Origin: an uncultured Chlamydiae bacterium
GTDB taxonomy: Bacteria; Chlamydiota; Chlamydiia; Chlamydiales; Parachlamydiaceae
NCBI GenBank assembly: GCA_963754655.1
Contig: CAVWGN010000001.1
Span: forward strand, 1,984,001-2,048,000
Direction: 5' to 3'
DNA length: 64,000 nt
Shown here: positions 151 through 53,649 of the stretch, in pieces
How positions within the stretch are numbered: the stretch's first letter is position 1
Layout of the letters: every line of letters starts with the position of its first letter
The notes under the pieces: model-generated
The model's database searches: none
Seen by the model: only the letters and a program-made list of their open reading frames with translations
Told to the model about the DNA's origin: nothing
Program-made: the position numbers and the translations under genes

Positions 151-1695
151 ATGAAAACTCCATTTCTTCATTGGCCCACAATGCCAACCCCTACAAACGA
201 AGCTTTTTTAGCTATCTCAATTCCCGAGGACGTTTTAGTAATTATTTTTGATCAGGTTGTCAATCAAAGTCAATCTGTGCGAGACATTTCTTCTATTCTA
301 CTTACCTGCCATCAATGGAAATATATTTTCGAGAAAAAGCCTTGTATATCTTTAGTACAAGCTCTTTTTCAACTTCAAAATCATCATCAATCTGTGATTA
401 AATTTCCCCAAGAGTGCTTGACAAAAAATGAACAAAACAAGAATTTTACATCGCAAGAACTTAAACTCATCGATCGAGTTCATAGCCGAATAGGATTTGA
501 AAATTTATTAATGGTCGACTCAAAATTATTTCATCCAAAGAGTTTGTTTCTTTCTCTTTTAGATCGCTATTCATGGAATCCTGAAGTTTGTAAAAAGAGC
601 GCCAATGAAAATATCCAGTTTGTGGCTAAAGAACAATTGTCTATTTTAAATTCCCTTATATTCGACACAGATGACCAAAGATTGAACGTTATTAAACATG
701 ACTTTATCGAAAAGTTTTACCTGGGTAGCATTCAAAATAAAAGCTATGGAGATGAAACATGGATGCAAGTAGAAAAATCTATTATCTCTACACTTAAAAA
801 ATTTCCTAATTTTAATGATAAAAAATTTTTCATTAAATTTGCTAAATGTTTTGGAAGTTCTGTTTTTAATATAAACGAAGACTTTAAAAAAGATCGGGAG
901 ATTGTCTTAACTGTTGTTCAGCAAAATGGTATGGCCCTTCAATTTGCAAATGAAAGCCTTAAAAAAGATCGAGAAATTGTCTTGGCTGCTATTAAGAAAA
1001 ATGGCGACGCTCTTGCATATGCAGATAAAAGCTTTAAAAAAGATCGGGAGATTGTCTTGGCGGCCATTAAGCAACATGGCTGGGCTTTTGTCTATGCAGA
1101 TGAAAGCCTTAAAAAAGATCGAGAAATTGTCTTAGCTGCTGTTACGCAAGCTGGACACACTCTTCAACGCATAGATGAAAGCTTTAAAAAAGATCAAGAG
1201 ATTGTCTTAGCTGCTGTTAAGCAAGATGGACGCGCTCTTGACTGTGCAGATAAAAGCCTTACAAAAGATCAAGAAGTTGTCTTGGCTGCTGTTAAGCAAG
1301 ATGGACGCGCTCTTCAATATGCAGATGAAAGCCTTAGAAACGATCGAGAAGTTGTCTTGGCTGCCGTTAAACAAAGAGGCGGCGCTCTTAAATATGCAAA
1401 TGAAAATCTTAAAAAAGATCGAGCGTTTGTCTTGTTGGCTGTTCAGCAAAGAGGCTGCGCTCTTGAATACGCAGATGAAAGCTTTAAAAAAGATCGAGCG
1501 TTTGTCTTGTTGGCTGTTCAACAAAGAGGCTGCGCTCTTGAATATGCAGATGAAAGCCTTAGAAAAGATCGAGAAATTGTCTTGGCGGCCGTTAAACAAA
1601 ATAGCCGGGCTATTCACTATGCAGATAAAAATCTTCAAAAAGATCAAGAGATTGTCTTGGCTGCCTCTCAGCAAGATGGTAAGGCTCTTCAATAA
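151..1695 (+). CDS. F-box-like / DUF4116-like 25-aa repeat protein (about 11 repeats), candidate T3SS effector
   Basis: N-terminal IPEDVLVIIF...ILLTCHQWK F-box-like motif, ~190-aa family core, then tandem ADESLKKDREIVLAAVxQxGxALxY repeats. Decayed repeat sequence continues past the stop. Confidence 0.85.
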   Translation: MKTPFLHWPTMPTPTNEAFLAISIPEDVLVIIFDQVVNQSQSVRDISSILLTCHQWKYIFEKKPCISLVQALFQLQNHHQSVIKFPQECLTKNEQNKNFTSQELKLIDRVHSRIGFENLLMVDSKLFHPKSLFLSLLDRYSWNPEVCKKSANENIQFVAKEQLSILNSLIFDTDDQRLNVIKHDFIEKFYLGSIQNKSYGDETWMQVEKSIISTLKKFPNFNDKKFFIKFAKCFGSSVFNINEDFKKDREIVLTVVQQNGMALQFANESLKKDREIVLAAIKKNGDALAYADKSFKKDREIVLAAIKQHGWAFVYADESLKKDREIVLAAVTQAGHTLQRIDESFKKDQEIVLAAVKQDGRALDCADKSLTKDQEVVLAAVKQDGRALQYADESLRNDREVVLAAVKQRGGALKYANENLKKDRAFVLLAVQQRGCALEYADESFKKDRAFVLLAVQQRGCALEYADESLRKDREIVLAAVKQNSRAIHYADKNLQKDQEIVLAASQQDGKALQ

Positions 1696-2156
1696 TGCAG
1701 ATGCAAGCCTTAAAAAAGATTAAGAGATTGTCTTATTAGCCTTTCCCTTTCAGCAAAAATAGCTCGACTCTTATATATGCCAATGAAATTTTAAAAAATT
1801 TATAGCAAATTTTTAGTCGGTTGACAAAAGATAATCAAAAAGTTGACAATAGAAATAGGAAGTATCTAAATGTTCCTTGCCTTCCATCACTATTATCTAC
1901 TCCTCAAAATACCCCAGCTTTTTTCTCCCGACCTGCTTTCCTTCAACATTTGCTGAGATAGATTCGAGTGTTTTGATGAAAATTATTCAGTAGAGTAACA
2001 TGTAATAAGGATCATATCCGCCTGTTCAACGGAAATAAGGAACCTTCTTCTCCCAGCAAAAAATCATTCAAGAAATGTAAGTTTATAGACTTATAAAATT
2101 AAATATTATAAATTTACTCTAACTATTGCATTAATCAATTTAATCAAAAAATAATT

Positions 2157-3578
2157 ATGAAAACTTCCTTCTTTTATTCATCCACAATGCCAAACATTTC
2201 AAATGAAGATTTTTTAGACAGCTTGCCTAATGAGGTGTTAGGAATTATTTTTGATCAGGTTGTCAATCAAAGCCAATCTTCACCTGATATTTATTCTATT
2301 CTACTTACTTGTCAAAAATGGAAACACGTTATTGAGGAGCATCCTTGCATCTCATTAGTGCAGGCTCTTTTTCAACTTAAGTTTAGCCATCGAGCCGCTA
2401 TTAAGATTCCCCAGGAGTGTATCATAACTAAGCACAAGCAGCATTTTACATGTCAGGAATTTAAACTGATCAATCGGGTCCATAGTGACAAAAGATTTGA
2501 AAAATTGTTAATGATCAAGTCAGAATTATTTCAAGTGAATAGTGTATTTCTTTCTCTTTTGGATCGCTATCCGTGGGATTTTGAAGTTTGCAAAAAAAGT
2601 GCCAATAAAAACATCCAGCATATAGCTGAAAAACAATCATCTATTTTAAGCTCTCTTATATCTGGCACTGATGAAGAAAGATTAACCATTATCAAAAATG
2701 ACTTTATCGAAAAATTTTATCATGGCGGTCGAGGTCGGATATGGCAAACGGCCGAAAGATTTCTCATCTCCACACTCAAAAAATTTACTCCTTTTAACGA
2801 TAACGCACTTTTTATTAAAGTTGCTCGCTGTTTTGGACATGCTGTTTTTGATATAGATGAAAGCCTTAAAAAAGATCGAGAGATTGTCTTGGCTGCCCTC
2901 CAGCAAAATGGCATGAATTTTCAATTTGCAGATGAAAGCCTTAAAAAAGATCGAGAGATTGCCTTAGCTGCCATTAATCAAGATGCTTGGGCTCTTCAAT
3001 TTGCAGATGAAAGTCTTAAAAAAGATCGAGACATTGTCTTAGCTGCTGTTCAGCAATATGGCCAAGCTCTTCGATATGCAGATGGAAGCCTTAAAAAAGA
3101 TCGAGACATTGTCTTAGCTGCCGTTAATCAGGATAGCGTAGCTCTTCAATATGCAGATGATCGTCTTAAAAAAGATCAAGAAATTGTCTTGGCTGCTGTT
3201 CAACAAAATGGTATGAATCTTCAATTTGCAGATGAAAGCCTTAAAAAAGACCGAGAGATTGTTTTGGTTGCCGTTAAGCAAAATGGCTTAGCTCTTCTAT
3301 ATGCAAATGAAAGCCTTAAAAAAGATCGAGAAGTTGTTTTGTTTGCCGTCAAGCAATATGGCTGGGCTCTTATATTTGCAGATGAAAGCCTTAAAAAAGA
3401 TCGAGAGATTGTTTTGGCTGCCGTTCAGGAGTATGGCTGGTCTCTTCTATTTGCAGATTCAAGCTTTAAAAAAGATCGAGAAATTGTCTTGGCTGCCGTT
3501 AAGGAAAATGACAGAGTTCTTCTATTTGCAGATGAAATCGTTAAAAAAGATCAAGAGATTATTTTTGCTCCTCTTTAG
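2157..3578 (+). CDS. F-box-like / DUF4116-like repeat protein (about 9 repeats)
   Basis: LPNEVLGIIFDQ...ILLTCQKWK, paralogous core, 25-aa repeats. Confidence 0.85.
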   Translation: MKTSFFYSSTMPNISNEDFLDSLPNEVLGIIFDQVVNQSQSSPDIYSILLTCQKWKHVIEEHPCISLVQALFQLKFSHRAAIKIPQECIITKHKQHFTCQEFKLINRVHSDKRFEKLLMIKSELFQVNSVFLSLLDRYPWDFEVCKKSANKNIQHIAEKQSSILSSLISGTDEERLTIIKNDFIEKFYHGGRGRIWQTAERFLISTLKKFTPFNDNALFIKVARCFGHAVFDIDESLKKDREIVLAALQQNGMNFQFADESLKKDREIALAAINQDAWALQFADESLKKDRDIVLAAVQQYGQALRYADGSLKKDRDIVLAAVNQDSVALQYADDRLKKDQEIVLAAVQQNGMNLQFADESLKKDREIVLVAVKQNGLALLYANESLKKDREVVLFAVKQYGWALIFADESLKKDREIVLAAVQEYGWSLLFADSSFKKDREIVLAAVKENDRVLLFADEIVKKDQEIIFAPL

Positions 3579-3836
3579 CAAGATAGGCTTGTTTATCCCA
3601 TATGCAGATTTAAGCCTTCAAGAAAACCTTTAATTTCACTAAATAACACTATCTTGTCAACTTTGCAAATTTTTAGTTCAGTTAACAGAGTGTCATGTAA
3701 CCTGAAGGGCTTCCAGTGTCAAATATTTTTAGTAAAAACACCCTGCCTAGAATGCTGTGTATAAAGACCCTTTGCTATGAATATTTAAATGATCTAAGTA
3801 CAACAACCATTTTTTCTGGTTCACAGTACCCTTCCA

Positions 3837-6203: not shown

Positions 6204-7610
6204 ATGAAAACTACCCTCCATTGGCCTACAATCCCAAACATTTCAAACGAAGCTTTTTTAGCTACCTCACTTCCCGAGGAAGTTTTAGGAATTATTTTTG
6301 ATCAGGTTGTCAATCAAAATCAATCTGTGCAAGACATTTTTTCTATTCTACTTACCTGTCATCAATGGAAATGTGTTTTTGATAAAAACCCTTGCATATC
6401 TTTGGTGCAAGCTCTTTTTCAACTTCAACATCATCCTCAATCTGAAATTAAGTTTCCCCAAGAGTGCCTGAGAGTTGAACAAGACAAGAATTTTACGTCG
6501 CAAGAACTTAAACTCATCGACCGATTTCATAGCCAACAAGGATTTGAAAATTTATTAATGCGCGACTCAAAATTATTTCACCCAAAGAGTTTATTTCTTT
6601 CTCTTTTAGACCACTATTCATGGAATCCTGAAAGTTGCAAAACCAGCACCAATGAAAATATCCAGCGTGTGGCTGAAGAACAATTGTCTATTTTAAATTC
6701 CCTTATATTAGGCACGGATGACCAAAGATTAGCCGTTATTAAACATGACTTTATCGAAAAATTTTACCTGGGTGTTAGTCAAAATAAAACTAATCGAGAT
6801 GAAACATGGAGACAATTAGAAAGATCTGTTATCTCTACACTTAAAAAATTTCCCAATTTTAACGATAAAAAAGTTTTTATTAAATGTGTTCAATGCTTTG
6901 GACGTTCTGTTTTTACTATAAACGACAGCTTTAAAAAAGATCGGGAGATGGTCTTGGCTGCTGTTAAGCAAAATGAAACAACTCTTCACTATGTAGATGA
7001 AAGCTTTAAAAAAGATCAAGAGATTGTCTTGGTTGCTGTTAAGCGATGTGGGAACATGCTTCACCATGTAGATGAAAGCTTTAAAAAAGATCGAGAAATT
7101 GTCTTAGCTGCTGTTAAGCAACAGTTCCGCATTCTACAATTTATAGATGAAAGCCTTAAAAAAGATCGAGAGATTGTCTTAGCTGCTGTTAAGCAAGATG
7201 GACGCGCTCTTCAATATGCAGCTGAAAGCCTTAAAAAAGATCGAAAACTTGTCTTGGCTGCGGTTAAGCAAAGAGGCGAGGCTCTTCAATATGCAGATGA
7301 AAGCCTTAAAAAAGATCGAGACTTTGTCTTGTCGGCTGTTCAACAAAGAAGCGGCGCTCTTGAATATGCAGATAAAAGCTTTCAAAAAGATCGAGACTTT
7401 GTCTTGTTAGCTGTTCAGCAAAGAGGCAGCGCTCTTGAATATGCAGATGCAAGCTTTAGAAAAGATCGAGACATTGTCTTGGCTGCTGTTAAGCAATATG
7501 GCTGGGCTCTTCAATATGCAGATGCAAGTCTTAAAAAAGATCAAGAGATTGTCGAGGCGGCTGCCGTTAAGCAAAATGTCTATGCGTTTGCGTTTAGCTT
7601 GTTGGGCTAG
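6204..7610 (+). CDS. F-box-like / DUF4116-like repeat protein (8-9 repeats)
   Basis: LPEEVLGIIFDQ...LLTCHQWK; closest paralog of the 151 gene. Confidence 0.85.
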   Translation: MKTTLHWPTIPNISNEAFLATSLPEEVLGIIFDQVVNQNQSVQDIFSILLTCHQWKCVFDKNPCISLVQALFQLQHHPQSEIKFPQECLRVEQDKNFTSQELKLIDRFHSQQGFENLLMRDSKLFHPKSLFLSLLDHYSWNPESCKTSTNENIQRVAEEQLSILNSLILGTDDQRLAVIKHDFIEKFYLGVSQNKTNRDETWRQLERSVISTLKKFPNFNDKKVFIKCVQCFGRSVFTINDSFKKDREMVLAAVKQNETTLHYVDESFKKDQEIVLVAVKRCGNMLHHVDESFKKDREIVLAAVKQQFRILQFIDESLKKDREIVLAAVKQDGRALQYAAESLKKDRKLVLAAVKQRGEALQYADESLKKDRDFVLSAVQQRSGALEYADKSFQKDRDFVLLAVQQRGSALEYADASFRKDRDIVLAAVKQYGWALQYADASLKKDQEIVEAAAVKQNVYAFAFSLLG

Positions 7611-7886: not shown

Positions 7887-9287
7887 ATGCAAATAATCAC
7901 CTTTAATTCAGATAAAATGGAAAACACTTCAAATGAAGCATTTTTAGACACCTTACTTCCCAAGGAGGTGTTGGGAGTTATTTTTGACCAGGTTGTCAAT
8001 CAAAGCCAATCTTTAGCCGATATTTCTTCTATTTTACTCACCTGTCAAAAATGGAAAGACGTTCTTGAGGAGAACCCGTGCATCTCTTTAGTGCAGGCCC
8101 TGTTTCAAGTTAAAATGAGTCATGGATCTGCTATTAAGCTTCCCCAGGAGTGTATTAAAACTGAGCAAAAGAAGTATTTTACATCTCAGGAACTTAAACT
8201 GATCGATCTAGTTCATAGTGAAAAAAGATTTGAAAAATTGTTAATGGTTAAGTCCGAATTATTTCAATTGAATAGTTTATTTCTTTCTCTTTTGGATCGC
8301 TATCCGTGGGATCTTGAAACTTGCAAAAATAGCGCCAATAAAAATATCCAGCTTGTGGCTGAAAAACAATTGTCTATTTTAAACTCTCTTGCATCAGGCA
8401 CTGATGACCAAATATTAACCGTTATCAAAGATGACTTTATTGAAAAATTTTACCAGGGTAGTCGAGGTGAAACATGGCAGCCGGCAAAAACATCTATCAT
8501 CTCCACGCTTAAAAAATTTCCCAATTTTAATGATAAAAAACTTTTTATTAAAGTTGCTCATTGTTTTGGACGTTCGGTTTTTGATATACATGAAGGCTTT
8601 AAAAATGATCGAGAGATTGTCTTGGCTGCCGTTCAGCAAAATGGCTGGGCTCTGCAATATGCGCATGAAAGCCTTCAAAAAGATCGAGAGATTGTCCTGA
8701 CAGCTGTTCAGCAAACTGCCTGGGTTCTTCAATTTGCACATGCAAGCCTTCAAGAGGATCGACAGATTGTTTTAGCTGCCGTTAAGCAAAATGGTTGGGC
8801 TGTTCAATATGCAAATGAAAGCCTTCAAAAAGATCGAGAAATTTTCTTGGCTGCCGTTAAGCAATATAGCTGGGCTCTTCAATTTGCAGATGAAAACCTT
8901 AAAAAAGATCGTGAGATTGTTTTGGCTGCCATTCAACAAGATGGCAGATCTCTTAGATATGCAGATGAAAGTTTAAAAAAAGATCGAGATATTGTCTTAG
9001 CTGCCGTTCAGCAAAATGGCTGGGCCCTTCAATATGCAGATGAAAGCCTTAAAAAAGATCGAGAGATTTTCTTGGCTGCCGTTCAGCAGAATGGCTGGGC
9101 TCTTCAATTTGCGGATGAAAACTTTAAAAAAGATCGAGAGATTATCTTAGCTGCCGTTCAACAAGATGGTAGAGCTCTTCGATATGCAGATGAGAGTTTT
9201 AAAAAAGATCGAGAAATTGTTTTGACTGCCATTAAGCAAAATCGTTTGTCTGTTCACTATGCAGATTTAAGCCTTCAAATAGTATAA
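7887..9287 (+). CDS. F-box-like / DUF4116-like repeat protein (about 9 repeats)
   Basis: LPKEVLGVIFDQ...LLTCQKWK plus 25-aa repeats. Confidence 0.85.
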   Translation: MQIITFNSDKMENTSNEAFLDTLLPKEVLGVIFDQVVNQSQSLADISSILLTCQKWKDVLEENPCISLVQALFQVKMSHGSAIKLPQECIKTEQKKYFTSQELKLIDLVHSEKRFEKLLMVKSELFQLNSLFLSLLDRYPWDLETCKNSANKNIQLVAEKQLSILNSLASGTDDQILTVIKDDFIEKFYQGSRGETWQPAKTSIISTLKKFPNFNDKKLFIKVAHCFGRSVFDIHEGFKNDREIVLAAVQQNGWALQYAHESLQKDREIVLTAVQQTAWVLQFAHASLQEDRQIVLAAVKQNGWAVQYANESLQKDREIFLAAVKQYSWALQFADENLKKDREIVLAAIQQDGRSLRYADESLKKDRDIVLAAVQQNGWALQYADESLKKDREIFLAAVQQNGWALQFADENFKKDREIILAAVQQDGRALRYADESFKKDREIVLTAIKQNRLSVHYADLSLQIV

Positions 9288-9433: not shown

Positions 9434-10672
9434 ATGCAATTAACTTCCATTCATTCACAAATAATACAAAACATTTCAAACGAACCTTTCTTAGATACCT
9501 CACTTCCTAAGGAAATATTAGGAGTTATTTTTGAGCAGGTTATCAATCAAAGCGACTTTTTAGGTGACATTTCTTCTATTCTACTCACCTGTCAAAATTG
9601 GAAAGGCATCCTTGAAAAGAACTCTTGCATCTCGTTGGCGCAGACTCTTTTTCAACTTCAATTTAGTCATCGATCTACTATTAAGTTTCCTCAGGAGTGT
9701 ATCACAACTAAGCAAAAGCAGCATTTTACATCTCAGGAACTTAAAATGATCGACCAAGTTCATGGTAAAACAAGATTTGAAAAATTGTTAATGGTCCAGT
9801 CAGAATTATTTCACTCGAATAGTTTATTTCTTTCTCTTTTGGATCGCTATCCATGGGACCTTGAAGTTTGCAAAAAGAGCGCCAATAAAAATATTCAACT
9901 TGTGGCTAAAGATCAATTGTCTATTTTAGACTCTCTTATAGCAGGTTCTGATGACCAAAAATTAACCATTATCAAAAATGATTTTATCAAAAAATTTTAC
10001 AACGGCGGCCGAGGTCAAACATGGGATCAAGCAAAAAAATCTGTCATCTCCACATTTAAAAATCTTCCCAATTTTAATGATAAAAAAATTTTTATTAAAA
10101 TTGCGCGCTGTTTTACAGACGCCGTTTTTTATATACACGAACGCTTTAAAAAAGATCGAGAGATTGTCTTGGCTGCCGTTCAGCAAAATGGCTGGGCTCT
10201 TCAATTTGCAGATGAAAGCCTTAAGAAAGATCGAGCAATTGTCTTAGCTGCCGTTAAGCAATATAGCTGGGCTCTTCGATATGCAGATGAAACCCTTCAA
10301 AAAGATCGAGAGATTGTCTTGGCTGCCGTTAAGCAAATTGGCGATACTCTTCAATTGGCACATGAAACTCTTAAAAAAGATCGGGAGATTGTCTTGGCTG
10401 CTGTTAAGCAAAATGGTGTGGCTCTTCAATATGCAGATGAAAGCTTTAAAAAAGATCGAGAGGTTGTCTCAGCTGCCATTCAACAAGATGGCAGAGCGCT
10501 TAGATATGTAGATGAAAACCTTAAAAAAGATCGAAAGATTGTCTTGATGGCCGTTAAACAAAACCCCCTTGCTATTCAACATGCGGATTTAACTCTTCAA
10601 ATCGAACTTATAAATTCACAACACCCCTACATAACACTATCTAATCAAATTTGCAAATTTTTGCTCAGTTAA
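9434..10672 (+). CDS. F-box-like / DUF4116-like repeat protein (about 6 repeats)
   Basis: LPKEILGVIFEQ...LLTCQNWK plus 25-aa repeats. Confidence 0.85.
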   Translation: MQLTSIHSQIIQNISNEPFLDTSLPKEILGVIFEQVINQSDFLGDISSILLTCQNWKGILEKNSCISLAQTLFQLQFSHRSTIKFPQECITTKQKQHFTSQELKMIDQVHGKTRFEKLLMVQSELFHSNSLFLSLLDRYPWDLEVCKKSANKNIQLVAKDQLSILDSLIAGSDDQKLTIIKNDFIKKFYNGGRGQTWDQAKKSVISTFKNLPNFNDKKIFIKIARCFTDAVFYIHERFKKDREIVLAAVQQNGWALQFADESLKKDRAIVLAAVKQYSWALRYADETLQKDREIVLAAVKQIGDTLQLAHETLKKDREIVLAAVKQNGVALQYADESFKKDREVVSAAIQQDGRALRYVDENLKKDRKIVLMAVKQNPLAIQHADLTLQIELINSQHPYITLSNQICKFLLS

Positions 10673-43528: not shown

Positions 43529-44439
43529 ATGCAAACTATACCCCTTTATTCACAAACAATGCAAAAAACTTCAAATGAAGCCGGCTTAAACATCATCCCT
43601 CATGAGGTGTATTAGGAATTATTTTTGATCGAGTTGTCAATCAAAGAAGCCAACCTTTACATGACATTTGTTCTATTTTACTCAGCTGTAAAAACTGGAA
43701 AAGAGTTCTTGAAAAGAATTCTTGTTTCCCATTATTGCAAACTTTTTTTTCAACTTAAAGACAACCATCGATCCACTATTACGTTTCCCTAAGAATGTAT
43801 CACAACTGAAGGGCAAAAGCAGCATTTTACCTCTCCGGAACTTAAACTGATCGATCGAGTAATCAGTTACCGAAGATTTGAAAAATTGTTAATGGTGGAT
43901 TCAAAATTATTTCATCCGAAGAGTTTATTTTTTTCTCTTTTAGATCGCTATCCATGGGATCCTGAAGTTTGCAAAAAGAGCGCCAATCCAAACATTCAGC
44001 ATATTGCTGAAGAACAATTATTTATTTTAAAGTCTTTTATATCGGTACTGATGAACAAAGATTGACCGTTATCAAAAATGAGTCTATCAAAGAACTTTAC
44101 CATGGCACTCGAGCTCAGTCATGGGAGGAGGTAGAAACATCTGTCATCTCTACACTTAAAAAATTTTTATTCAAGTTGCTCGCTATTTTGGACGTTCGGT
44201 TTTTTACATAGATGAAAACTTTAAAAAAGATCGAGAGATTCTCTTAGCTGCCGTTCAGCGATATGGTCCGGCTCTTCAATATGCAGATAAAAGCCTTAAA
44301 AAAGATCGAGAAATTGTCTTGGCGGCCATTCACAAATCAGCAAAATGGCTCTGCTCTTCACTTTGCAGATAAAAGCCTTAAACAAGATGAAGAGATTATC
44401 TTTGTTGCCATTCAGCAAAATCACCTTGTACAGTCTTAA
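43529..44439 (+). pseudogene. Frameshifted F-box/repeat paralog with a collapsed array (about 2 repeats)
   Basis: Full-length homology to neighbours with indels and stops; early 2-bp insertion GAGGTGTATTAGG shared with the 48075 copy. Confidence 0.85.
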
Positions 44440-44441
44440 AA

Positions 44442-44738: not shown

Positions 44739-46247
44739 ATGATGCAAACTACACCCCTGCATTCACAAACAATGCAAAACACTTCAAATGAAGCCTTCTT
44801 AGATACACTTCCTCATGAGGTATTAGGAATTATTTTTGATCAGGTTGTTAATCAAAGAAACCAATCTTTACGTGACATTTGTTCTATTTTACTCACCTGT
44901 AAAAACTGGAAAAGTATTCTTGCAAAAAACCCCTGTTTTTCATTACTGCAGACTTTTTTTCAACTCAAAAACAACCATCCATCCACCATTACGTTTCCCC
45001 AAGAATGTATCATAACTGATGAGCAACAGCAGCATTTTACCTCTCAGGAATTTAAACTTATTGATCAAGCAAGCGATGAACAAAGATTTAACAAATTGTT
45101 AATGGTGGATTCAAAATTATTTCACCCGAAAAGTTTATTTCTTTCTCTTTTGGATCGCTATCCATGGACACCTGAATTTTGTAAAAAGAGCGCCAATCCA
45201 AACATCCGGCGTATAGTTGAAGAACAATTGTCTATTTTAACGTCTCTTATATCAGGCACTGATGAACAAAGATTCGCTGTTATCAAAAATGACTCTATCA
45301 AAAAACTTTACTGTGTCAATCACGCTGTAGCATGGGAGAAGGCAGAAAGATCTGTCATCTCCACACTTAAAAAATTTCCCGATTTTAACGATAAAAAAAT
45401 CTTTATTCAAGTTGCTCGCCATTTTGGACGTTCGGTTTTTAATATACATGAAAGGCTTAAAAAAGATCGAGAGATTGTCTTAACGGCCGTTCAGCAAAAT
45501 GGCAATGCTCTTCAATATGCAGATGAAAGCCTTACAAAAGATCGAGAGATTGTCTTAACGGCCGTTCAGCAAGATGGCAATGCTCTTCAATATGCAGATG
45601 AAAGCCTTAGAAAAGATCAAGAGATTGTCTTGGCGGCCATTGAGCAAAGTGGCAATGCTCTTCAATATGCAGATGAAAGCTTTAAAAAAGATCGAGAAGT
45701 TGTCTTGGTTGCTGTTCAGAAAAATGGCATGGCTCTTGAATGTGCAGATGAAAGCCTTAAAAAAAATCGAGAGATTGTCTTGGCTGCCATTCGGAAAAAT
45801 GGCCATATTCTTCACTTTGCAGATGCAAGCCTTACAAAAGATCGAGAGATTGTCTTGGCTGCCATTCAGAAAAATGGCATGGCTCTTAAATATGCAGATG
45901 AAAGCCTTAAAAAAAATCGAGAGATCGTTTTGGCTGCCGTTCAGGAATATGGCCATGCTCTTAAATATGCAGATAAAAGCCTTACAAAAGATCGAGAGAT
46001 TGTCTTGACTGCCGTTAAGGGATATGGCTATGCTCTTCAATTTGCAGATGAAAGCCTTAAAAAAGATCGAGAGATTGTCTTGACAGCCCTTCAGCAAGAT
46101 GGTAGGTTTCTTCAATTTGCAGATGAAAGCCTTAAAAAAAATCGAGAGATTGTCTTGGCTGCCATTCAGCAAGATGGCCGCGCTTTTCGATATGCAGATG
46201 AAACCCTTAAAAAAGATGAAGAGATTATGTTGGCTGCCATTCAGTAA
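44739..46247 (+). CDS. F-box-like / DUF4116-like repeat protein (about 10 repeats)
   Basis: Core nearly identical to the 42096 gene; two additional repeats. Confidence 0.85.
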   Translation: MMQTTPLHSQTMQNTSNEAFLDTLPHEVLGIIFDQVVNQRNQSLRDICSILLTCKNWKSILAKNPCFSLLQTFFQLKNNHPSTITFPQECIITDEQQQHFTSQEFKLIDQASDEQRFNKLLMVDSKLFHPKSLFLSLLDRYPWTPEFCKKSANPNIRRIVEEQLSILTSLISGTDEQRFAVIKNDSIKKLYCVNHAVAWEKAERSVISTLKKFPDFNDKKIFIQVARHFGRSVFNIHERLKKDREIVLTAVQQNGNALQYADESLTKDREIVLTAVQQDGNALQYADESLRKDQEIVLAAIEQSGNALQYADESFKKDREVVLVAVQKNGMALECADESLKKNREIVLAAIRKNGHILHFADASLTKDREIVLAAIQKNGMALKYADESLKKNREIVLAAVQEYGHALKYADKSLTKDREIVLTAVKGYGYALQFADESLKKDREIVLTALQQDGRFLQFADESLKKNREIVLAAIQQDGRAFRYADETLKKDEEIMLAAIQ

Positions 46248-46320: not shown

Positions 46321-48015
46321 ATGATGCAAACTATCCCCCTGCATTCACACGCAATGCAACACACTTCAAATGAAGTCTTCTTAGACACACTTCCTCATGA
46401 GGTGTTAGGAATTATTTTTGATAAGGTTATCAATCAAAGAAGCCAGCCTTTACATGACATTTGTTCTATTTTACTCACCTGTAAAAACTGGAAAAGCGCG
46501 CTTGAAAAGAATCCTTGTATCTCTTTAGTGCAGGCCCTCTTTCAACTTAAAGACAATCATCGATCCACTATTACTTTTCCTCAAGAATATATCACAACTG
46601 ACAAGCAAAAGCAGCATTTTACCTCTCCAGAACTTAAACTGATCGATCGAGTAATCGATGACGAAAGATTTGAAAAATTGTTAAGGGCGGATTCAAAATT
46701 ATTTCATCCAAAGAGTTTATTTCTTTCTCTTTTGGATCGCTATTCGTGGCGTCCTGACGTTTGCAGATTGAGCGACAATCCAAACATTCACCATGTGGCT
46801 GGAGAACAATTGTCTATTTTGGATTCTCTTATATTAGGCACGGATGAACAAAGATTGACCATTATCAAAAATGACTCTATCAAAAAACTTTACTGTGGCG
46901 GTCGAGGATTAGGAAAATATTTTCAGTTAATGAAATGGCAGCAGGCAGAAATATCTGTTATCTCCACCCTTAAAAAATTTCCCAATTTTAATGATAAAAA
47001 AATCTTTATTCAATTTGCTAGCTATTTTGGACATTCGGTTTTTAATATACATGAAAGCTTTAAAAAAGATCGAGAGATTGTCTTGGCAGCCGTTCAGAAA
47101 GATGGCGATGCTCTTCAATATGCAGATAAAAGCCTTAAAAAAGAGCGAGCGATTGTCTTAGCTGCCATTAAGCAACATGGCAAGGCTTTTAAATATGCAG
47201 ATGAAAGCCTTAAAAAAGATCAAGAGACTGTCTTGGCTGCTTTGCAGAAAGAGGGATGCAATCTTTACTATGCAGATGAAAGCTTTAAAAAAAATCGAGA
47301 GATTGTCTTGGCGACCGTTCAGAGAAATGGCTGGGCTTTTCCATATGCAGATGAAAGCCTTAAAAAAGATCGAGAAATTGTCTTGGCTGCCGTTCAGCAA
47401 TATGGCACTACTCTTTTCTATGTAGATGCAAGCCTTAAAAAAGATCGAGAGATTGTCTTGACTGCTGTTAAGCAAGATGGCCAGGCTCTTAGGTGCGCGG
47501 ATGAAAGCCTTAAAAAAGATCGAGAGATTGTCTTAACGGCCGTTAAGAAAAATGGCTGTGCTCTTCGATATGCAGATGAAAGCCTTAAAAAAGATCGAGA
47601 GATTGTCTTGGCTGCCGTTCAGCAATATGGCACTACTCTTTTCTATGTAGATGCAAGCCTTAAAAAAGATCGAGAGATTGTCTTGACTGCCGTTAAGCAA
47701 GATGGCCAGGCTCTTAGCTGCGCGGATGAAAGCCTTAAAAAAGATCGAGAGATTGTCTTAACGGCCGTTAAGAAAAATGGCTGTGCTCTTCGATATGCAG
47801 ATGAAAGCCTTAAAAAAGATCGAGAGATTGTCTTGGCTGCCGTTCATCAAGATGGCCGCGCTTTTCAATTTGCAGATGAAAGCCTTAAAAAAGATCGAGA
47901 GATTGTTTTGGCGGCTGTTAAGCAAAATGGACGCGCTCTTCGATATGCAGATGAAACCCTTAAAAAAGATGAAGAGATTATGTTGGCTGCCATTCAGCAA
48001 AATCACTTTGTATAG
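46321..48015 (+). CDS. F-box-like / DUF4116-like repeat protein (about 12 repeats)
   Basis: Start reassigned to MMQTIP at 46321 by paralog comparison; contains an internal duplication of three repeats. Confidence 0.85.
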   Translation: MMQTIPLHSHAMQHTSNEVFLDTLPHEVLGIIFDKVINQRSQPLHDICSILLTCKNWKSALEKNPCISLVQALFQLKDNHRSTITFPQEYITTDKQKQHFTSPELKLIDRVIDDERFEKLLRADSKLFHPKSLFLSLLDRYSWRPDVCRLSDNPNIHHVAGEQLSILDSLILGTDEQRLTIIKNDSIKKLYCGGRGLGKYFQLMKWQQAEISVISTLKKFPNFNDKKIFIQFASYFGHSVFNIHESFKKDREIVLAAVQKDGDALQYADKSLKKERAIVLAAIKQHGKAFKYADESLKKDQETVLAALQKEGCNLYYADESFKKNREIVLATVQRNGWAFPYADESLKKDREIVLAAVQQYGTTLFYVDASLKKDREIVLTAVKQDGQALRCADESLKKDREIVLTAVKKNGCALRYADESLKKDREIVLAAVQQYGTTLFYVDASLKKDREIVLTAVKQDGQALSCADESLKKDREIVLTAVKKNGCALRYADESLKKDREIVLAAVHQDGRAFQFADESLKKDREIVLAAVKQNGRALRYADETLKKDEEIMLAAIQQNHFV

Positions 48016-48074: not shown

Positions 48075-48810
48075 ATGCAAACTATACCCCTTTATTCACA
48101 AACAATGCAAAAAACTTCAAATGAAGCCGGCTTAAACATCATCCCTCATGAGGTGTATTAGGAATTATTTTTGATCGAGTTGTCAATCAAAGAAGCCAAC
48201 CTTTACATGACATTTGTTCTATTTTACTCACCTTTAAAAACTGGAAAAGAGTTCTTGAAAAGAATTCTTGTTTCTCATTATTGCAAACTTTTTTTCAACT
48301 TAAAGACAACCATCATCCACTATGACGTTTCCCCAAGAATGTATCACAACTGAAGGGCAAAAGCAGCATTTTACCTCTCAGGAACTTAAACTGATCGATC
48401 TAGCAAGCAGTTGATCAAAGCTTTAACAAATTGTTAATGGTGGATTCAACCGAAAAGTTTATTTCTTTCTCTTCTGGATCGCTATCCATGGGATCCTAAA
48501 GTGTGTAAAAAGAGCGCCAATCCAAACATCCAGCGTATAGCTGAAGAACAATTGTCTATTTTAACGTCTCTTATATCAGGCACTGACGAACAAAGATTGA
48601 CCGTTATCAAAAATGATTCTATCAAAAAACTTTATTATGGCAATCAAGCTCGGGCATGGCACGAGGCAGAAACATCTGTTATCTCCACTCTTAAAAGATT
48701 TCCCAATTTTAACGATAAAAAAATTTTTACTCAAGTTGCTAGCTATTTTGGACATTCGGTTTTTAAGATACATGAAAGCCTTAAAAAAGATCGAGAGATT
48801 GTCTTGACTG
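48075..48810 (+). pseudogene. Frameshifted, 3'-truncated F-box/repeat paralog
   Basis: Same 5' lesion as the 43529 copy; breaks off in the first repeat. Confidence 0.85.
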
Positions 48811-48960
48811 CCAGAATAAGGTGCAATTAAAGTATAGCCTAACAAAGAATAAAAGAAAAAAGACATTAAGAAATAGAAGAAGCGACAGATGAGACCTCTT
48901 TAGTCTTTTTTTTCTTTATGACACTTTAAAACCTACACTTTTATTGCACTTTTTTCTACA
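48811..48960. repeat. Diverged copy of the ychF upstream intergenic region
   Basis: CCAGAATAAGGTGCAATTAAAGTATAGCCTAACAAAGAATAAAAG... matches about 41801-41955. Confidence 0.8.
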
Positions 48961-49023
48961 TTAATCCGTTAAATTAGTTGTTGCTTATTAGAATGGTTTT
49001 AATTCCCTATGCGTTAAATTAAG

Positions 49024-49080
49024 AAGAGATGAGCTTGGGCTAAGCGACGTCCTCAGTTGCCGCACCGCTTTGCTCTGGGG
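49024..49080. repeat. Degenerate copy of the outer arm of the 17861 element
   Basis: AAGAGATGAGCTTGGGCTAAGCGACG...CCGCTTTGCTCTGGG. Confidence 0.75.
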
Positions 49081-49150
49081 CGAGATTTAACATCTAGCCT
49101 GTTTAAGCTTGCTGTTCTTCGGGTCATTTCAATTTAAACAAAGAATTATT

Positions 49151-50380
49151 ATGAAAACCATCTTCCTTCCTTCACCCACACTATCAAACATTTCAAACGA
49201 AGCTTTCCTCGATAACTCACTTCCTCAGGAATTATTAGGAATTATTTTTGATCAGGTTGTCAATCAAAGAAGCCAACCTTTACATGACATTTGTTCTATT
49301 TTACTCACCTGTAAAAACTGGAAAAATGTTCTGGAAAAGAATCCTTGTATCTCTTTAGTGCAAGCCCTGTTTCAACTTAAAGACAGTCATCCATCCACTA
49401 TTACGTTTCCCCAAGAATGTATCACAACTGAAGGGCAAAAGCAGCATTTTACCTCTCAAGAAATTAAACTCATTGATCAAGCAATCGATGACCAAACATT
49501 TAAAAAATTGTTAGTAGCGGATTCAAAATTATTTCATCCGAAGAGTTTATTTCTTTCGCTTTTGGATCGCTATTCATGGGATCCTGAATTTTGCAAAAAG
49601 AGCGCCAATCCAAACATTCAGCATGTGGCTGAAGAACAATTGTCTATTTTAAAGTCTCTTATATCAGGCACTGACGAACAAAGATTCGCTGTTATCAAAA
49701 ATGACTCTATCAAAAAGCTTTACTATGGCAATCACGCTCTAGCACGAGAGGAGGCAGAAAGATCTGTCATCTCCACCCTTAAAAAATTTCCCAATTTTAA
49801 CGATAAACAGATTTTTATTCAAGTAGCTCGCCATTTTGCACGTTCGGTTTTTAATATACATGAAAGCCTTAAAAAAGATTGTGAAATTGTCTTGGCTGCC
49901 GTTCAGCAAGATGGTTATGCTTTTTTCTATGCAGATGCAAGCCTTAAAAAAGATCGAGAAATTATCTTGGCTGCAGTTAAGCAAAATGGCTATTTTCTTC
50001 AATATGCAGATGAAAACTTTAAAAAAGATCGAGAGATTGTCTTGACTGCTGTTCAGAAAAATGGCCTGGCTCTTGAATATGCAGATGAAAGCCTTAAAAA
50101 AGATAAAGAGATTGTCTTGACTGCCGTTCAGAAAAATGGCCTGCCTCTTAAATATGCAGATGAAAGCCTTAAAAAAGATCGAGAGATTGTCTTGACTGCT
50201 GTTCAGAAAGATGGCCGGGCTCTTCAATATGCAGATGAAAGCCTTAAAAAAGATCGTGAGATTGTCTTAACGGCCGTTAAGGAAAATATCTATGCTCTTG
50301 TCTCTGCAGATAAGACCCTTAAAAAAGATCGAGAGATTATCTTTACTGCCTTTGCGCACAAGCACTTTGTACAGTCTTAA
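49151..50380 (+). CDS. F-box-like / DUF4116-like repeat protein (about 6 repeats)
   Basis: Start reassigned to MKTIFLP at 49151; leader resembles the cluster-1 genes. Confidence 0.85.
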   Translation: MKTIFLPSPTLSNISNEAFLDNSLPQELLGIIFDQVVNQRSQPLHDICSILLTCKNWKNVLEKNPCISLVQALFQLKDSHPSTITFPQECITTEGQKQHFTSQEIKLIDQAIDDQTFKKLLVADSKLFHPKSLFLSLLDRYSWDPEFCKKSANPNIQHVAEEQLSILKSLISGTDEQRFAVIKNDSIKKLYYGNHALAREEAERSVISTLKKFPNFNDKQIFIQVARHFARSVFNIHESLKKDCEIVLAAVQQDGYAFFYADASLKKDREIILAAVKQNGYFLQYADENFKKDREIVLTAVQKNGLALEYADESLKKDKEIVLTAVQKNGLPLKYADESLKKDREIVLTAVQKDGRALQYADESLKKDREIVLTAVKENIYALVSADKTLKKDREIIFTAFAHKHFVQS

Positions 50381-50439
50381 AAATCATATCAATGCAGTAA
50401 GAAAGAAGCGACTTAACCAGTGATATCGACGAATTCATA

Positions 50440-51285
50440 CTAGGGAGCGTACCTAAAAGATTAGCTATTGTATAATACAAGCGATCGTCAACATTCCTGC
50501 ATAATTTTGAGCTTTCATTTCGTATCTTATTCCAATACGCCTAAATCGTTTTATAAACTGAAAAAAATTTTCTACCAAGCAACGCTCTCTGTAGATATGT
50601 TTATCATGTTCAATTAGTTCAGCTCTTGATACTTTGCTGGGTATGACTGCTTGACTTCCCATCTTTTCTATAAAATTTCTGATTTCATTTGAGTCGTAAG
50701 CTTTATCAGCTATAACATTTTGTGGATTTTTTCCACTGAGTAAAAGCTTCATTTGAGTGCTCTCGTGTACTTGACCTTCTGTCAAGATAAAATCAATACA
50801 ACGACCTAATTCATCTGTTACTGCATGAATTTTTGTGGTTGTTCCGGCCCTTGATTTTCCCATGGCTTCTTCGGCTTTTTTTTTATCCTACAAGCATCTT
50901 GATGCGCTTCAACAATTGAGCTGTCTACAGAGTAATTTTCTTCGTCAATTTCATCTTTTAAAGCTTGCCAAATCGTTTGCCAGATTCCAGCCTTTGTCCA
51001 TCGATTAAAGCGATTATAACATGTGCTCCAAGGACCATACTTGGGTGGTAGATCCCTCCAAGCGGCTCCTGTTCTTAAAATCCAAATAATGCCTTCTAAA
51101 ATCTTACGATGAGGCCGACTTGGTCTGCCCCAATATCCTCGTTCTTTTGGCAATAAAGGTTTTATTTTTATCCATCTTTCATTAGTTAATACTATCCTAC
51201 TCATTCAAATTTCCCCCTTGTTTTATCAGAGAAAATTATAAATCATAAGAGTTATTATTTTAAATCTTTTAGGTACGCTCCCTAG
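50440..51285 (-). mobile_element. IS5-family element (IS427-like), two-ORF transposase joined by a frameshift
   Basis: Inverted ends CTAGGGAGCGTACCTAAAAGATTTA / TAAATCTTTTAGGTACGCTCCCTAG. OrfA 50818-51204 (ILRTGAAWRDLP..YGPWST); OrfB 50465-50863 (TTKIHAVTD, ADKAYDS, YRERCLVENFF). A9 run at 50876-50884 in the overlap region. Confidence 0.93.
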
Positions 51286-51430
51286 TGTAAACAATCTTTT
51301 TGCTATGGGAAAGAACCGATAATTTCTCTAAACGTGGACCATAGACATCGACAGCTCTATTATTGGGATCAATCGTGCAAAAAAGGATAATTAGAAACAG
51401 CTGCTTGGTTAAAAGTCAAAACATTAAAAA
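51282..51430 (-). pseudogene. Decayed ychF 5' fragment, continuing at 50408-50443 across the IS5 element
   Basis: Removing the IS restores ATATCGACGAATTCATACTAGTGTAAACAATCTTTTTGCTAT..., matching ychF about 41504-41684. Confidence 0.85.
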
Positions 51431-51621
51431 TCTTTTATATCGTTTACCAAACCACACTTTTAATGATACTTTTTTCTACTAGAGGGGAAAGAAAATCACT
51501 AATTTATTTCAGCAACTCCTAATTAATCTATTGAATTAGAATTTTGAATATTATATTATAACAAATAATAAAATTAAATTTTAAATAGCATTAAAACAAA
51601 CACTTTAATTACAGGATCATA

Positions 51622-53649
51622 ATGCAAACTACGCCCCTGCATTCAACAACAATGCAAAACACTTCAAATGAAGCCTTCTTAGACACACTTCCTCATGAGG
51701 TATTAGGAATTATTTTTGATCAGATTGTCAATCAAAGAAGCCAGCCTTTACGTGACATTTGTTCTATTTTACTTACCTGTAAAAACTGGAAAAGCGTTCT
51801 TGAGAAGAATTCTTGTTTTTCATTACTGCAGACTTTGTTTCAACTCAAAGGCAGTCATCCATCCACTATTAGGTTTCCCCAAGAATGTATCACAACTGAG
51901 CAAAAACAGCATTTTACCTCTCAGGAACGTAAACTAATCGATCGAGCAATCGATGAACAAAGATTTAATAAATTGTTAATGGTTGATTCAAAATTATTTC
52001 ACCCTAAAAGTTTATTTCTTTCTCTTTTGGATTGCTATCCATGGGATCCTGAAGTTTGTAAAAAGAGCGCCAATCCAAACATTCAGCGTATAGCTGAAGA
52101 ACAATTGTCTATTTTAAAGTCTCTTATATTAGGCACTGATGAACAAAGATTGACCGTTATCAAAAATGAGTCTATCAAAAAACTTTACCATAGCACTCAA
52201 GCTCAGTTACGGGAGGAGGCAGAAACATCTGTCATCTCTACTCTTAAAAAATTTCCCAATTTTAATGATAAAAGAATTTTTATTCAAGCTGCTCGCTATT
52301 TTGGATGTTCGGTTTTTAATGTACATGAAAGTTTTAAAAAAGATCGAGAGATTCTCTTAGCTGCCGTTCAGCGATATGGTCCGACTCTTAAATATGCAGA
52401 TGAAAACCTTAAAAAAGATCGAGAGATCGTTTTGGCTGCCGTTCAGGAATATGGCTATGCTCTTCACTATGCAGATAAAAGCCTTACAAAAGATCGAGAG
52501 ATTGTCTTGGCTGCCGTTCAGCAAAATGGCGATGCTCTTCAATATGTAGATGCAAGCTTTAAAAAAGATCGAGAGATTGTCTTGGCTGCCGTTCAGAAAC
52601 GTGGGAATGCTCTTCAATATGCAGATGAAAGCCTTAAAAAAGATCGAGAGATTGTCTTGGCTGCCGTTCAGAAACATGGCAATGCTCTTGAATATGCAGA
52701 TGAAAGTCTTAAAAAAGACCCAGACATTGTCTTGGCTGCCGTTCAGCGACATGGCGAGTTTCTTCAATATACAGATGACAGCTTTAAAAAAGATCGAGAG
52801 ATTGTCTTGGCCGCCGTTCAGCAAGATGGCAATGCTCTTGAATATGCAGATGAAAGTCTTAAAAAAGATCGAGAGATCGTCCTGGCTGCCGTTCAGCAAG
52901 ATGGCAATGCTCTTGAATATGCAGATGAAACCCTTAAAAAAGATCGAGAGATCGTTTTGGCTGCCGTTCAGCAAAATGGCATGGCTCTTGAATATGCAGA
53001 TGACAGCTTTAAAAAAGATCGAGAGATCGTCTTGGCTGACGTTCAGCAAACTGGCATCGCTCTTCAATATGCAGATGAAAGTCTTAAAAAAGATCGAGAG
53101 ATCGTCTTGGCTACCGTTCAGCAAGATGGCTATGCTCTTAAATATGCAGATGAAAGTCTTAAAAAAGATCGAGAGATCGTTTTGGCTGCCGTTCATAATA
53201 ATGGCATGGCTCTTCGACATGCGGATGACAGCCTTAAAAAAGATCGAGAGACCGTTTTGGCTGCCGTTCATAAAAATGGCATAGCTCTTGAATATGCAGA
53301 TGACAGCCTTAAAAAAGATCGAGAGATTGTCTTGGCTACTGTTAACCAAAATGGCAAAGCTCTTGAATATGCAGATGAAAGTCTTAAAAAAGATCGAGAG
53401 ATTGTCTTGGCGGCCGTTAAGGGATATGGCTATGCTATTCGATATGCAGATGAAAGCCTTAAAAAAGATAGAGAGATTATCTTGGCTGCCGTTCAGCAAA
53501 ATGGCTATGCTATTCAATATGTAGATGAAAGTCTTAAAAAAGATCGAGAAATTGTCTTGGCTGCCGTTAAGCAAGATGGCACAGCTCTTTTCTATGCAGA
53601 TGAAAGCCTTAAACAAGATGAAGAGATTATCTTGGCTGCCATTCAGTAA
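51622..53649 (+). CDS. F-box-like / DUF4116-like repeat protein (about 17 repeats, the longest)
   Basis: LPHEVLGIIFDQ...LLTCKNWK plus 17 full 25-aa repeats. Confidence 0.85.
   Translation: MQTTPLHSTTMQNTSNEAFLDTLPHEVLGIIFDQIVNQRSQPLRDICSILLTCKNWKSVLEKNSCFSLLQTLFQLKGSHPSTIRFPQECITTEQKQHFTSQERKLIDRAIDEQRFNKLLMVDSKLFHPKSLFLSLLDCYPWDPEVCKKSANPNIQRIAEEQLSILKSLILGTDEQRLTVIKNESIKKLYHSTQAQLREEAETSVISTLKKFPNFNDKRIFIQAARYFGCSVFNVHESFKKDREILLAAVQRYGPTLKYADENLKKDREIVLAAVQEYGYALHYADKSLTKDREIVLAAVQQNGDALQYVDASFKKDREIVLAAVQKRGNALQYADESLKKDREIVLAAVQKHGNALEYADESLKKDPDIVLAAVQRHGEFLQYTDDSFKKDREIVLAAVQQDGNALEYADESLKKDREIVLAAVQQDGNALEYADETLKKDREIVLAAVQQNGMALEYADDSFKKDREIVLADVQQTGIALQYADESLKKDREIVLATVQQDGYALKYADESLKKDREIVLAAVHNNGMALRHADDSLKKDRETVLAAVHKNGIALEYADDSLKKDREIVLATVNQNGKALEYADESLKKDREIVLAAVKGYGYAIRYADESLKKDREIILAAVQQNGYAIQYVDESLKKDREIVLAAVKQDGTALFYADESLKQDEEIILAAIQ

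What the first reader, a model, noticed from the sequence alone, without database searches (positions are those of the whole stretch)
151..53649. Library of F-box effectors with 25-aa repeat arrays that vary at fixed positions, a possible modular target-recognition code
Seen: ten intact paralogs share an S/T/P-rich N-terminus, an F-box-like motif, a ~190-aa core and 6-17 repeats of ADESLKKDREIVLAAVxQ-[X1]-G-[X2]-AL-[X3]-Y/F. The scaffold is almost invariant. X1 (N/D/Y/R/H/T), X2 (W/R/M/C/N/Y/G/Q/L/T/K/I) and X3 (Q/E/R/K/F/H) change from repeat to repeat, so each gene spells a different string (e.g. NGW-YSW-IGD-NGV-DGR versus DGR-DGR-RGG-RGC-RGC). Known: F-boxes bind Skp1/Cul1, and ubiquitination-related families are expanded in amoeba-associated chlamydiae, usually with LRR, ankyrin or TPR repeats. 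Inference: this is a diversifying helical-solenoid binding surface, by analogy with TALE, PPR or VLR repeats, linking a host ligand to SCF. I know of no function described for DUF4116 repeats.
Basis: partly seen in the sequence, partly recalled or inferred. Interest (0 to 1): 0.85.

Follow-up and report, generated by a model that had tools for sequence, protein, structure and literature searches.

The report
Diversifying F-box repeat family in chlamydia
An environmental chlamydia-type bacterium carries dozens of intact copies of one gene (ten in this window) whose 25-residue repeats are shuffled between copies and change fast at three positions; they likely form a set of secreted adaptors that would tag different host proteins for destruction, and the variation does not look like a TALE-style code.

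Summary
The ten window genes belong to 87 full-length paralogs, 4.3% of the chromosome. Each has an F-box-like motif, a ~170-aa helical core and 25-aa DUF4116 repeats. Positions 19, 21 and 24 carry 2.8, 3.8 and 2.9 bits. They show pN/pS of about 2-3, against 0.6-0.7 for the scaffold. In the model, 19 caps a short helix and 21/24/25 lie on it. Repeats move between paralogs by conversion.

The code idea is not supported. There are 330 triplets in 673 repeats, the sites assort nearly independently, and net charge is slightly negative. Position 21 is also the most variable site in 7 of 7 other DUF4116 groups. The F-box is borderline. Skp1 binding, secretion and targets are untested.

Best reading (0.58): a lineage-specific SCF-adaptor effector expansion like Neochlamydia NEX1/NEX2, with a new repeat type and a diversifying binding stripe.

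The parts
151..1695 (+). Paralog 1, 514 aa: F-box-like motif, core, 11 DUF4116 units (array about 884-1695)
2157..3578 (+). Paralog 2, 473 aa, 9 units (array 2855-3560)
6204..7610 (+). Paralog 3, 468 aa, 8 units (array 6927-7553)
7887..9287 (+). Paralog 4, 466 aa, 9 units (array 8590-9279); modelled with AlphaFold2
9434..10672 (+). Paralog 5, 412 aa, 6 units (array 10139-10563)
42096..43469 (+). Paralog 6, 457 aa, 9 units (array 42805-43454), divergent from ychF
43529..44440 (+). Broken copy: head 43529-44204 plus remnant repeats, interrupted by frame shifts; end approximate
44739..46247 (+). Paralog 7, 502 aa, 11 units (array 45448-46250); head modelled
44799..44924 (+). Best-scoring F-box-like motif of the family (PF12937: 22.1 bits in hmmscan, 26.1 bits in the genome search; cut-off 24.3)
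46321..48015 (+). Paralog 8, 564 aa from the homologous start, 13 units (array 47051-48003); units 5-7 and 8-10 are a recent 225-bp duplication (1, 2 and 0 differences)
48075..48830 (+). Broken copy: head 48075-48764 and the start of one repeat, interrupted by frame shifts; end approximate
49151..50380 (+). Paralog 9, 409 aa from the homologous start, 6 units (array 49860-50350)
51622..53649 (+). Paralog 10, 675 aa, 18 motif hits (array 52325-53652)
51282..51619 (.). Copy of the ychF 5' end and upstream region duplicated together with the gene (similar pieces at 44442-44737 and 48811-48959): trace of local tandem duplication

Best explanation
These are ten of 87 intact paralogs that each join an F-box-like motif and a helical core to 25-residue DUF4116 repeats, and they likely act as secreted adaptors that would bring different host proteins to the host SCF ubiquitin ligase. 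Shown: the architecture; the tandem clusters with broken copies; exchange of repeat tracts between paralogs; and an excess of amino-acid change at repeat positions 19, 21 and 24 on a conserved scaffold. Predicted: a three-helix-per-repeat solenoid in which 19 caps the short third helix and 21/24/25 lie along one side of it, so that stacked repeats would form one continuous stripe. Inferred: type III secretion, Skp1 binding, and that the stripe is the substrate-binding surface. New specificities would arise by gene duplication, gain and loss of whole repeats, conversion between the near-identical scaffolds, and selection on the stripe residues. This would be an antibody-like or ankyrin-like composite surface, not a one-repeat-one-letter code.
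For: Architecture and copy number. F-box-like hits at one N-terminal place in 54 of 83 members at E<=0.1, best 4.3e-5; 3 window members at or over cut-off. F33, C53 and W56 are invariant in 87 of 87, P25 in 84 and L29 in 83. F-box region pN/pS is 0.46 in 27 sister pairs. All 4 listed Atlas clusters for the head are F-box-named (3) or unnamed (1), scores 0.84-0.86, a lead only. A different chlamydial protein pairs an over-cut-off F-box (26.2 against 20.5 bits) with DUF4116, and others fuse DUF4116 to PARP or DUF294/SidM_N domains (3 such of 31 proteins scanned, plus one sub-cut-off F-box). Selection: flank-anchored pairs give a pooled 32/211 against 26/468 synonymous, ratio 2.7, p 8.5e-5, scaffold 0.73 (28 pairs); sister pairs give 1.6, 2.7 and 2.0 (76 of 173 unit pairs). 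Neutral simulations never exceed 2.0 bits against 2.8-3.8 observed (72 site-runs). Conversion: two genes 74% identical in the head share 308 exact 60-mers, and 39 distant pairs share at least one. SctU, SctV, CopN and CesT genes lie at 58-63 kb. Precedent: PMC4209131 (NEX/PEX families secreted in a heterologous assay) and PMC2244805 (positive selection at repeat positions of F-box GALA effectors).
Against: No F-box reaches Pfam's cut-off in hmmscan of the 10 window proteins. The motif has an insertion between its first helices and low model confidence (pLDDT 52-74). Fold searches gave no significant F-box match (best viral row E 0.28; Cdc4 E 1.9). A profile comparison with the window's canonical F-box protein failed (E 0.22). 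With the head's synonymous divergence (0.37) as yardstick the three ratios fall to about 1.2, 1.9 and 1.3 (my arithmetic). The sites were chosen on the same data. A ratio of 2 or more arose in 9 of 72 neutral site-runs. At the strictest threshold the scaffold ratio itself was 1.49 on 4 synonymous differences. Several core positions (190, 194-202, 110-113, 229) are about as variable. DUF4116 also occurs in free-living bacteria, phages and protists, so the repeat itself does not imply an effector.
Confidence: 0.58

Rival explanations
1. Mostly non-adaptive birth-and-death expansion. Repeats are homogenised by slippage and conversion, the three sites are merely exposed and tolerant, and most copies are redundant.
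For: 15 partial, split or repeat-less loci; ragged C-termini; weak constraint overall (head pN/pS 0.40-0.56, scaffold about 0.6); head not found in 60 genomes of the family. PMC4209131 argues drift for the NEX/PEX copy numbers.
Against: Neutral simulations with conversion do not reach the observed entropy. W is 12-fold and Y 2.8-fold enriched at position 21 while P, V, F and H are depleted. Flank-anchored pN/pS is 2.3-2.7. 87 copies keep open frames, and most of 29 upstream regions inspected keep an AT-rich region and a ribosome-binding-like site.
Confidence: 0.14
2. The proteins are diversified binders, but the F-box-like motif is degenerate or serves as a decoy. They would inhibit or sequester targets (or Skp1 itself) without ubiquitinating them.
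For: Sub-threshold F-box with an insertion; no significant structural match; distant homologues P0039, P0040 and P0046 show no F-box hit at E<=0.05; most other DUF4116 proteins scanned have no F-box.
Against: Invariant F33/C53/W56 and near-invariant P25/L29; the motif region is at least as constrained as the core (0.46 against 0.56); the hit recurs in P0038 and P0047.
Confidence: 0.14
3. The variation serves escape, not new specificity. All copies bind one target class through conserved residues, and the exposed stripe diversifies to avoid host recognition or to track a variable host protein family.
For: Conserved Y/F at position 25 next to the variable residues; near-independence of the sites; conversion among copies.
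Against: The enriched residues at 21 (W, Y, R) are those typical of binding hot spots (own knowledge; counts). The same site varies in phage and free-living-bacterial DUF4116 proteins.
Confidence: 0.09
4. TALE/PPR-like or armadillo-like code: each repeat reads one base or one residue of an extended ligand through X1/X2/X3.
For: Exact 25-aa register without gaps in 754 of 807 spacings; N/D dimorphism at position 19 resembles PPR code residues (recalled); some covariation of 19-21 and 21-24 in the unthinned set (z 6-7); weak structural rows for armadillo and PPR proteins (Z<=8.2, rmsd 8-16 A).
Against: 330 triplets in 673 units, 263 types for 90%; covariation vanishes after thinning to 35 genes (z -1.1 to 1.5); mean net charge -0.5 per repeat; N/D fits helix capping; repeat length and the position of the variable residues differ from TALE RVDs (PMC11417379 passages).
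Confidence: 0.05

Closest known systems
Neochlamydia NEX1a (F-box + LRR) and NEX2 (F-box + TPR); Protochlamydia PEX1/PEX2 (Domman et al. 2014, PMC4209131; parts 1-4 of 9 read)
   Same: Lineage-specific family of tens to over a hundred genes in a related chlamydia; N-terminal F-box-like motif, conserved unknown spacer, variable number of C-terminal repeats; tandem arrays and pseudogenes; overall purifying selection on the non-repeat part.
   Different: The repeat is DUF4116, not LRR or TPR; 87 copies in a single genome; site-specific excess of amino-acid change and clear tract exchange between paralogs, whereas that paper found no support for positive selection (whole-gene estimates) and no convincing role of recombination; secretion not tested here.
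Ralstonia GALA effectors (F-box + LRR; PMC2244805; abstract and section 9 read)
   Same: Bacterial F-box plus solenoid; positive selection at fixed repeat positions proposed to mark the substrate-binding face.
   Different: A handful of genes against 87; LRR against an all-helical 25-aa repeat; the selection signal there was limited to some paralogs.
Pfam DUF4116 (PF13475; modelled as an alpha-solenoid in PMC8078820, passages read)
   Same: Every member matches far above cut-off; the predicted fold agrees.
   Different: No function, F-box fusion or chlamydial expansion appeared in the papers that my two term searches listed.
TALE / STAR and PPR proteins (PMC11417379 passages; PPR code recalled)
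   Same: Homogeneous helical repeats with variation concentrated at fixed positions; effector context.
   Different: No small alphabet, no coupling between sites, no basic surface, 25 instead of 33-35 residues, and a ubiquitin-ligase adaptor motif in place of an activation domain.
Legionella AnkB and other F-box + ankyrin effectors (as described in PMC4209131)
   Same: F-box + helical repeat design in an amoeba-associated bacterium.
   Different: Single gene with a tested function there; here a large diversifying family. No C-terminal CaaX motif was flagged in any of the 87.

Membership tests
DUF4116 (PF13475) | Match above the curated cut-off (24.9 bits) | tested here: met
   10 of 10 window proteins, 214-737 bits
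F-box proteins (PF00646/PF12937) | Profile match at the curated cut-off | tested here: inconclusive
   0 of 10 in hmmscan; 3 of 10 in the genome search; 54 of 83 at E<=0.1
F-box proteins (PF00646/PF12937) | Three-helix F-box fold | tested here: inconclusive
   Three helices predicted over the motif at pLDDT about 53-74; no significant fold match; 14 of 50 viral rows are F-box-named but best E is 0.28
F-box proteins (PF00646/PF12937) | Binding to Skp1 | not testable with these tools
   No Skp1 sequence was available: PF01466 in 0 of 400 genomes and 0 of 4 viral records; no co-fold was run
NEX1 / NEX2 / PEX families | C-terminal LRR or TPR repeats | tested here: not met
   No LRR or TPR family among the hits at E<=1 for the 10 proteins
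NEX1 / NEX2 / PEX families | Birth-and-death pattern: tandem arrays, pseudogenes, lineage-specific copy number | tested here: met
   Tree clades follow genomic clusters; 15 partial or broken loci; head in 0 of 60 family genomes with the narrow profile, 2 distant copies in G065
NEX1 / NEX2 / PEX families | Functional type III secretion signal | not testable with these tools
   Only composition and disorder: N-terminal 20 aa S/T/P/N/Q/H 53% against 32% background; pLDDT under 50 at residues 1-23
TALE-like proteins | 33-35-aa repeats with adjacent variable di-residue at 12/13 | tested here: not met
   25-aa period; variable sites 19, 21, 24
TALE-like proteins | Small recurring alphabet of specificity residues | tested here: not met
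   137 X1X2 pairs and 330 triplets in 673 units
PPR proteins | 35-aa two-helix repeat | tested here: not met
   25-aa repeat with three short helices; no PPR Pfam hit
TALE-like / PPR proteins | Nucleic-acid binding | not testable with these tools
   Only net charge, -0.5 per repeat
Diversity-generating retroelement target | Reverse transcriptase in the genome | tested here: not met
   PF00078: 0 matches in G000 (96.7% complete); control rang in 3 of 14 genomes
Diversity-generating retroelement target | Variation confined to adenines of a template | tested here: not met
   Position 24 varies mainly at a C, and many scaffold adenines stay fixed (codon tables)
VLR-like or cassette-based antigenic variation | One expression locus fed by silent cassettes | tested here: inconclusive
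   Tract exchange is shown, but donors and recipients are full genes with their own upstream regions; no expression data

The most novel reading that the evidence does not exclude
The 87 genes are a natural, self-shuffling library of targeted degraders: a constant Skp1-docking head plus interchangeable 25-residue binding modules that gene conversion recombines, each module contributing a largely independent pocket, so that specificity could be read from the repeat string. DUF4116 would then be a previously uncharacterised, compact binder scaffold used across phages, giant viruses, protists and symbionts.
Probability: 0.12. Interest if true: 0.85.

Novelty: new variant of a known kind. Interest (0 to 1): 0.52.

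Why it matters
If right, it gives DUF4116 its first functional assignment, as a substrate-recruiting solenoid. It adds a third repeat type to chlamydial F-box expansions. It also bears on the open question left by PMC4209131, whether such expansions are drift or adaptation: here three named positions show excess amino-acid change and can be mutated, and 87 natural variants exist to map sequence to target. A 25-residue scaffold with one narrow variable stripe is also of interest as a natural binder library. Ubiquitin-ligase hijacking by repeat-bearing F-box effectors is itself well known, which caps the surprise.

Tried and rejected
DGR-type mutagenesis: rejected. TALE/PPR code: not supported. 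Opposite-strand and shifted-frame ORFs over the arrays (e.g. 52357-53655 minus) are shadows of the repeat DNA. Pfam SpoVR_C and other short hits are cross-matches spread over the repeats with 0-1 passing stretches. PDB sequence search with the head profile: 0 hits at E<=10. Fold searches of both models: nothing at E<=0.001 and best Z 8.2 (rmsd 10.3) and 6.5; this does not show the fold is new. Metagenome scan for the head: 0 of 407 candidate stretches confirmed. Skp1 co-fold: not run, as no Skp1 sequence was found (the control rang nowhere, so absence is not shown). One search used a profile that included repeats, so its 72 of 250 tally counts DUF4116, not the head; only two G065 rows span the head, and one of them was in the profile. 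In one search the global omega stayed at its start value and grids were coarse, so its site values (2.5, 5, 4) are rough, and recombination inflates such estimates. The supplement of PMC11417379 could not be read; it may list DUF4116 clusters or binding tests.
Full report
Observation. The window has ten uninterrupted paralogs in two clusters (151-10672 and 42096-53649), each with a gap-free 25-aa repeat array, and two broken copies. All ten match DUF4116 at 214-737 bits. Entropy over 92 window units peaks at positions 21, 24 and 19. The scaffold is 83% identical to its majority residue, so it is conserved rather than invariant. The N-terminal 20 residues are enriched in S/T/N/Q and poor in K/R/G and are unstructured in the model.

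Scale. The genome (3.12-Mb chromosome, 35-kb second contig) holds 87 full-length members of 318-675 aa covering 4.3% of the chromosome. A DNA profile of the head gives 106 hits, 19 outside the 87; 15 of these loci are partial, split or repeat-less. Tree clades largely follow genomic clusters, and pieces of the ychF 5' end were duplicated along with the second window cluster, so spread was mainly by local duplication. The organism is a chlamydia of the environmental kind: the window has the chlamydial T3SS operon, and a genome that the tool lists as same family shares the BTB-LRR/methyltransferase/ychF block and encodes a protein named Ca. Protochlamydia phocaeensis. The host is unknown.

Distribution. 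The head is nearly private. It was found in 0 of 60 family genomes with the narrow profile. Of 30 hits in the large protein collection, 29 come from this chromosome and one (P0008) from another assembly; that one is 82% identical to its nearest paralog and has a different repeat string. Among 1.84 billion representatives, 20 pass E 0.001, including four distant outside homologues at 20-31% identity; further distant copies lie in L069/L070. The repeat, in contrast, is common: 23 of 61 genomes searched, own genome included, plus free-living bacteria, viruses and protists. Position 21 is the most variable site in 7 of 7 groups of outside repeats (ungapped matches only; 27-136 units per group), with W, Y, L or R frequent.

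Structure. AlphaFold2 on 38 sequences gives mean pLDDT 83.7, with 92-98 over the repeats. Each repeat has a 4-, a 10- and a 6-residue helix. Position 19 is the single non-helical residue before the third helix, which fits its N/D/S/T preference (494 of 673 units). Positions 21, 24 and 25 are i, i+3, i+4 on that helix. That they line one exposed stripe is inferred; I had no coordinates. No solved structure matches significantly. PMC8078820 (passages) also modelled DUF4116 as an alpha-solenoid.

Selection. Over all unit pairs, pN relative to scaffold pS (0.22) is 2.0, 3.2 and 2.2 at the three sites and 0.15-1.25 elsewhere. In 27 disjoint sister-gene pairs, unit pairs within 8 differences (76 of 173) give 1.6, 2.7 and 2.0, scaffold 0.63; the head gives 0.40-0.56. 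Because chance pairing can inflate this, I scored units chosen only by their flanks: pooled ratio 2.7 (28 pairs, p 8.5e-5) and 2.3 (42 pairs, p 8e-6), scaffold 0.73 and 0.60; the strictest set (14 pairs) is unstable. A rough codon model agrees (with the caveats under Tried and rejected). In 24 neutral simulations the free sites reached at most 2.0 bits, although a ratio of 2 or more occurred in 9 of 72 site-runs. W and Y are 12- and 2.8-fold enriched at position 21. Against this: the sites were picked on the same data, and with head pS (0.37) as yardstick only position 21 stays clearly above 1. I conclude that diversifying selection is well supported at 21, probable at 24, and weakest at 19.

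Diversification mechanism. Repeat scaffolds are more alike than the heads (pS 0.22 against 0.37), 39 distantly related gene pairs share exact 60-mers, one pair shares 308, and whole blocks of repeats are duplicated within genes. Sister genes 99% identical in the head can differ at most repeats. No reverse transcriptase was found and changes are not adenine-specific, so ordinary slippage and conversion suffice.

Code or surface. A code predicts few recurring types and coupling between sites. There are 330 triplets in 673 units. After thinning to 35 genes, 248 units give 171 triplets against 181 +/- 4 under independence, and within-repeat coupling by residue class is nil; the unthinned set did show some coupling (z 6-7). 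Net charge is -0.5 per repeat. This fits a composite protein-binding surface better than base-by-base reading.

F-box. The motif sits at residues about 21-62 in all members, scores E<=0.1 in 54 of 83, and crosses Pfam's cut-off in 3 window members in one search but none in another. Its core residues are invariant or nearly so, and it is under purifying selection. Another chlamydial lineage pairs a clear F-box with DUF4116 on a different core. Structural searches were concordant but not significant, and one profile comparison failed. Skp1 binding remains untested because no Skp1 sequence was available.

Comparison and novelty. The closest known systems are NEX1a/NEX2 (PMC4209131, parts 1-4 of 9 read) and GALA (PMC2244805, abstract and section 9). 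This family works like them by inference but is not a member of either. Full-text searches for DUF4116 (4 papers, 3 listed) and for PF13475/IPR025197 (2 papers) listed nothing on function or on chlamydiae; I read passages of two of these and saw only the listings of the others. Five topical searches (listings only) showed no description of this family. The library lacks most subscription papers, and one relevant supplement was unreadable. This scan's earlier notes report hypervariable DUF4116-type sets in phages and a three-gene set with another head; these are unchecked AI notes and I do not count them as support.

Verdict. The feature is real and larger than reported. It is a new variant of a known kind: a birth-and-death F-box effector expansion with a new repeat type, measurable site-specific diversification and repeat shuffling. 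The recognition-code reading is unlikely. Interest 0.52.

Noticed in passing
L077:4377-12977 (G065:C11): Two distant head homologues (716 and 705 aa; the second has the sequence of P0047, named Ca. Protochlamydia phocaeensis) sit beside the same BTB-LRR / methyltransferase / ychF block as window 37.8-41.7 kb, on its other side. They have few repeats and a long unknown C-terminal domain. This may mark the ancestral locus.
   Followed up: partly
G000:C1:124207-126216 (P0038): Divergent intact member (29% head identity) with a basic, NLS-like C-terminal tail not seen in the 87 core members.
   Followed up: no
G000:C1:1399249 and 1426663: Paralogs with 74% head identity share several identical repeat units, a recent long conversion tract.
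   Followed up: yes
L066, L067, L072: Other chlamydial DUF4116 proteins are fused to PARP, DUF294/SidM_N nucleotidyltransferase and canonical F-box domains.
   Followed up: partly
window 61286-62656: The CopN-like gene after sctV is in two ORFs (324 and 117 aa; only the second hits T3SS_CopN_3rd), like the YopN/TyeA split (recalled) or a frameshift.
   Followed up: no
window 53935-55849 (minus): RNA ligase gene overlapping an HD + P-loop kinase gene: an RNA-repair-like pair, followed by a low-GC gap.
   Followed up: no
window 56856-57671, 29900-31591, 37779-39284, 32262-33950, 36406-37704: Further candidate effectors: a canonical F-box protein, two BTB-like + LRR proteins, a Ser/Thr kinase and a DUF818 protein.
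   Followed up: no
window about 3700-4900 and 35958-36232; 5648-6016; 50465-51204: Nested palindromic or tandem non-coding repeats between paralogs 2 and 3 and near 36 kb, a transposase remnant, and a two-ORF IS5-type transposase inside the second cluster.
   Followed up: no
family core positions 190-202, 110-113, 229: Core residues just before the first repeat are as variable as the repeat stripe (3.1-3.5 bits) and may extend the binding surface; partly near alignment gaps.
   Followed up: no
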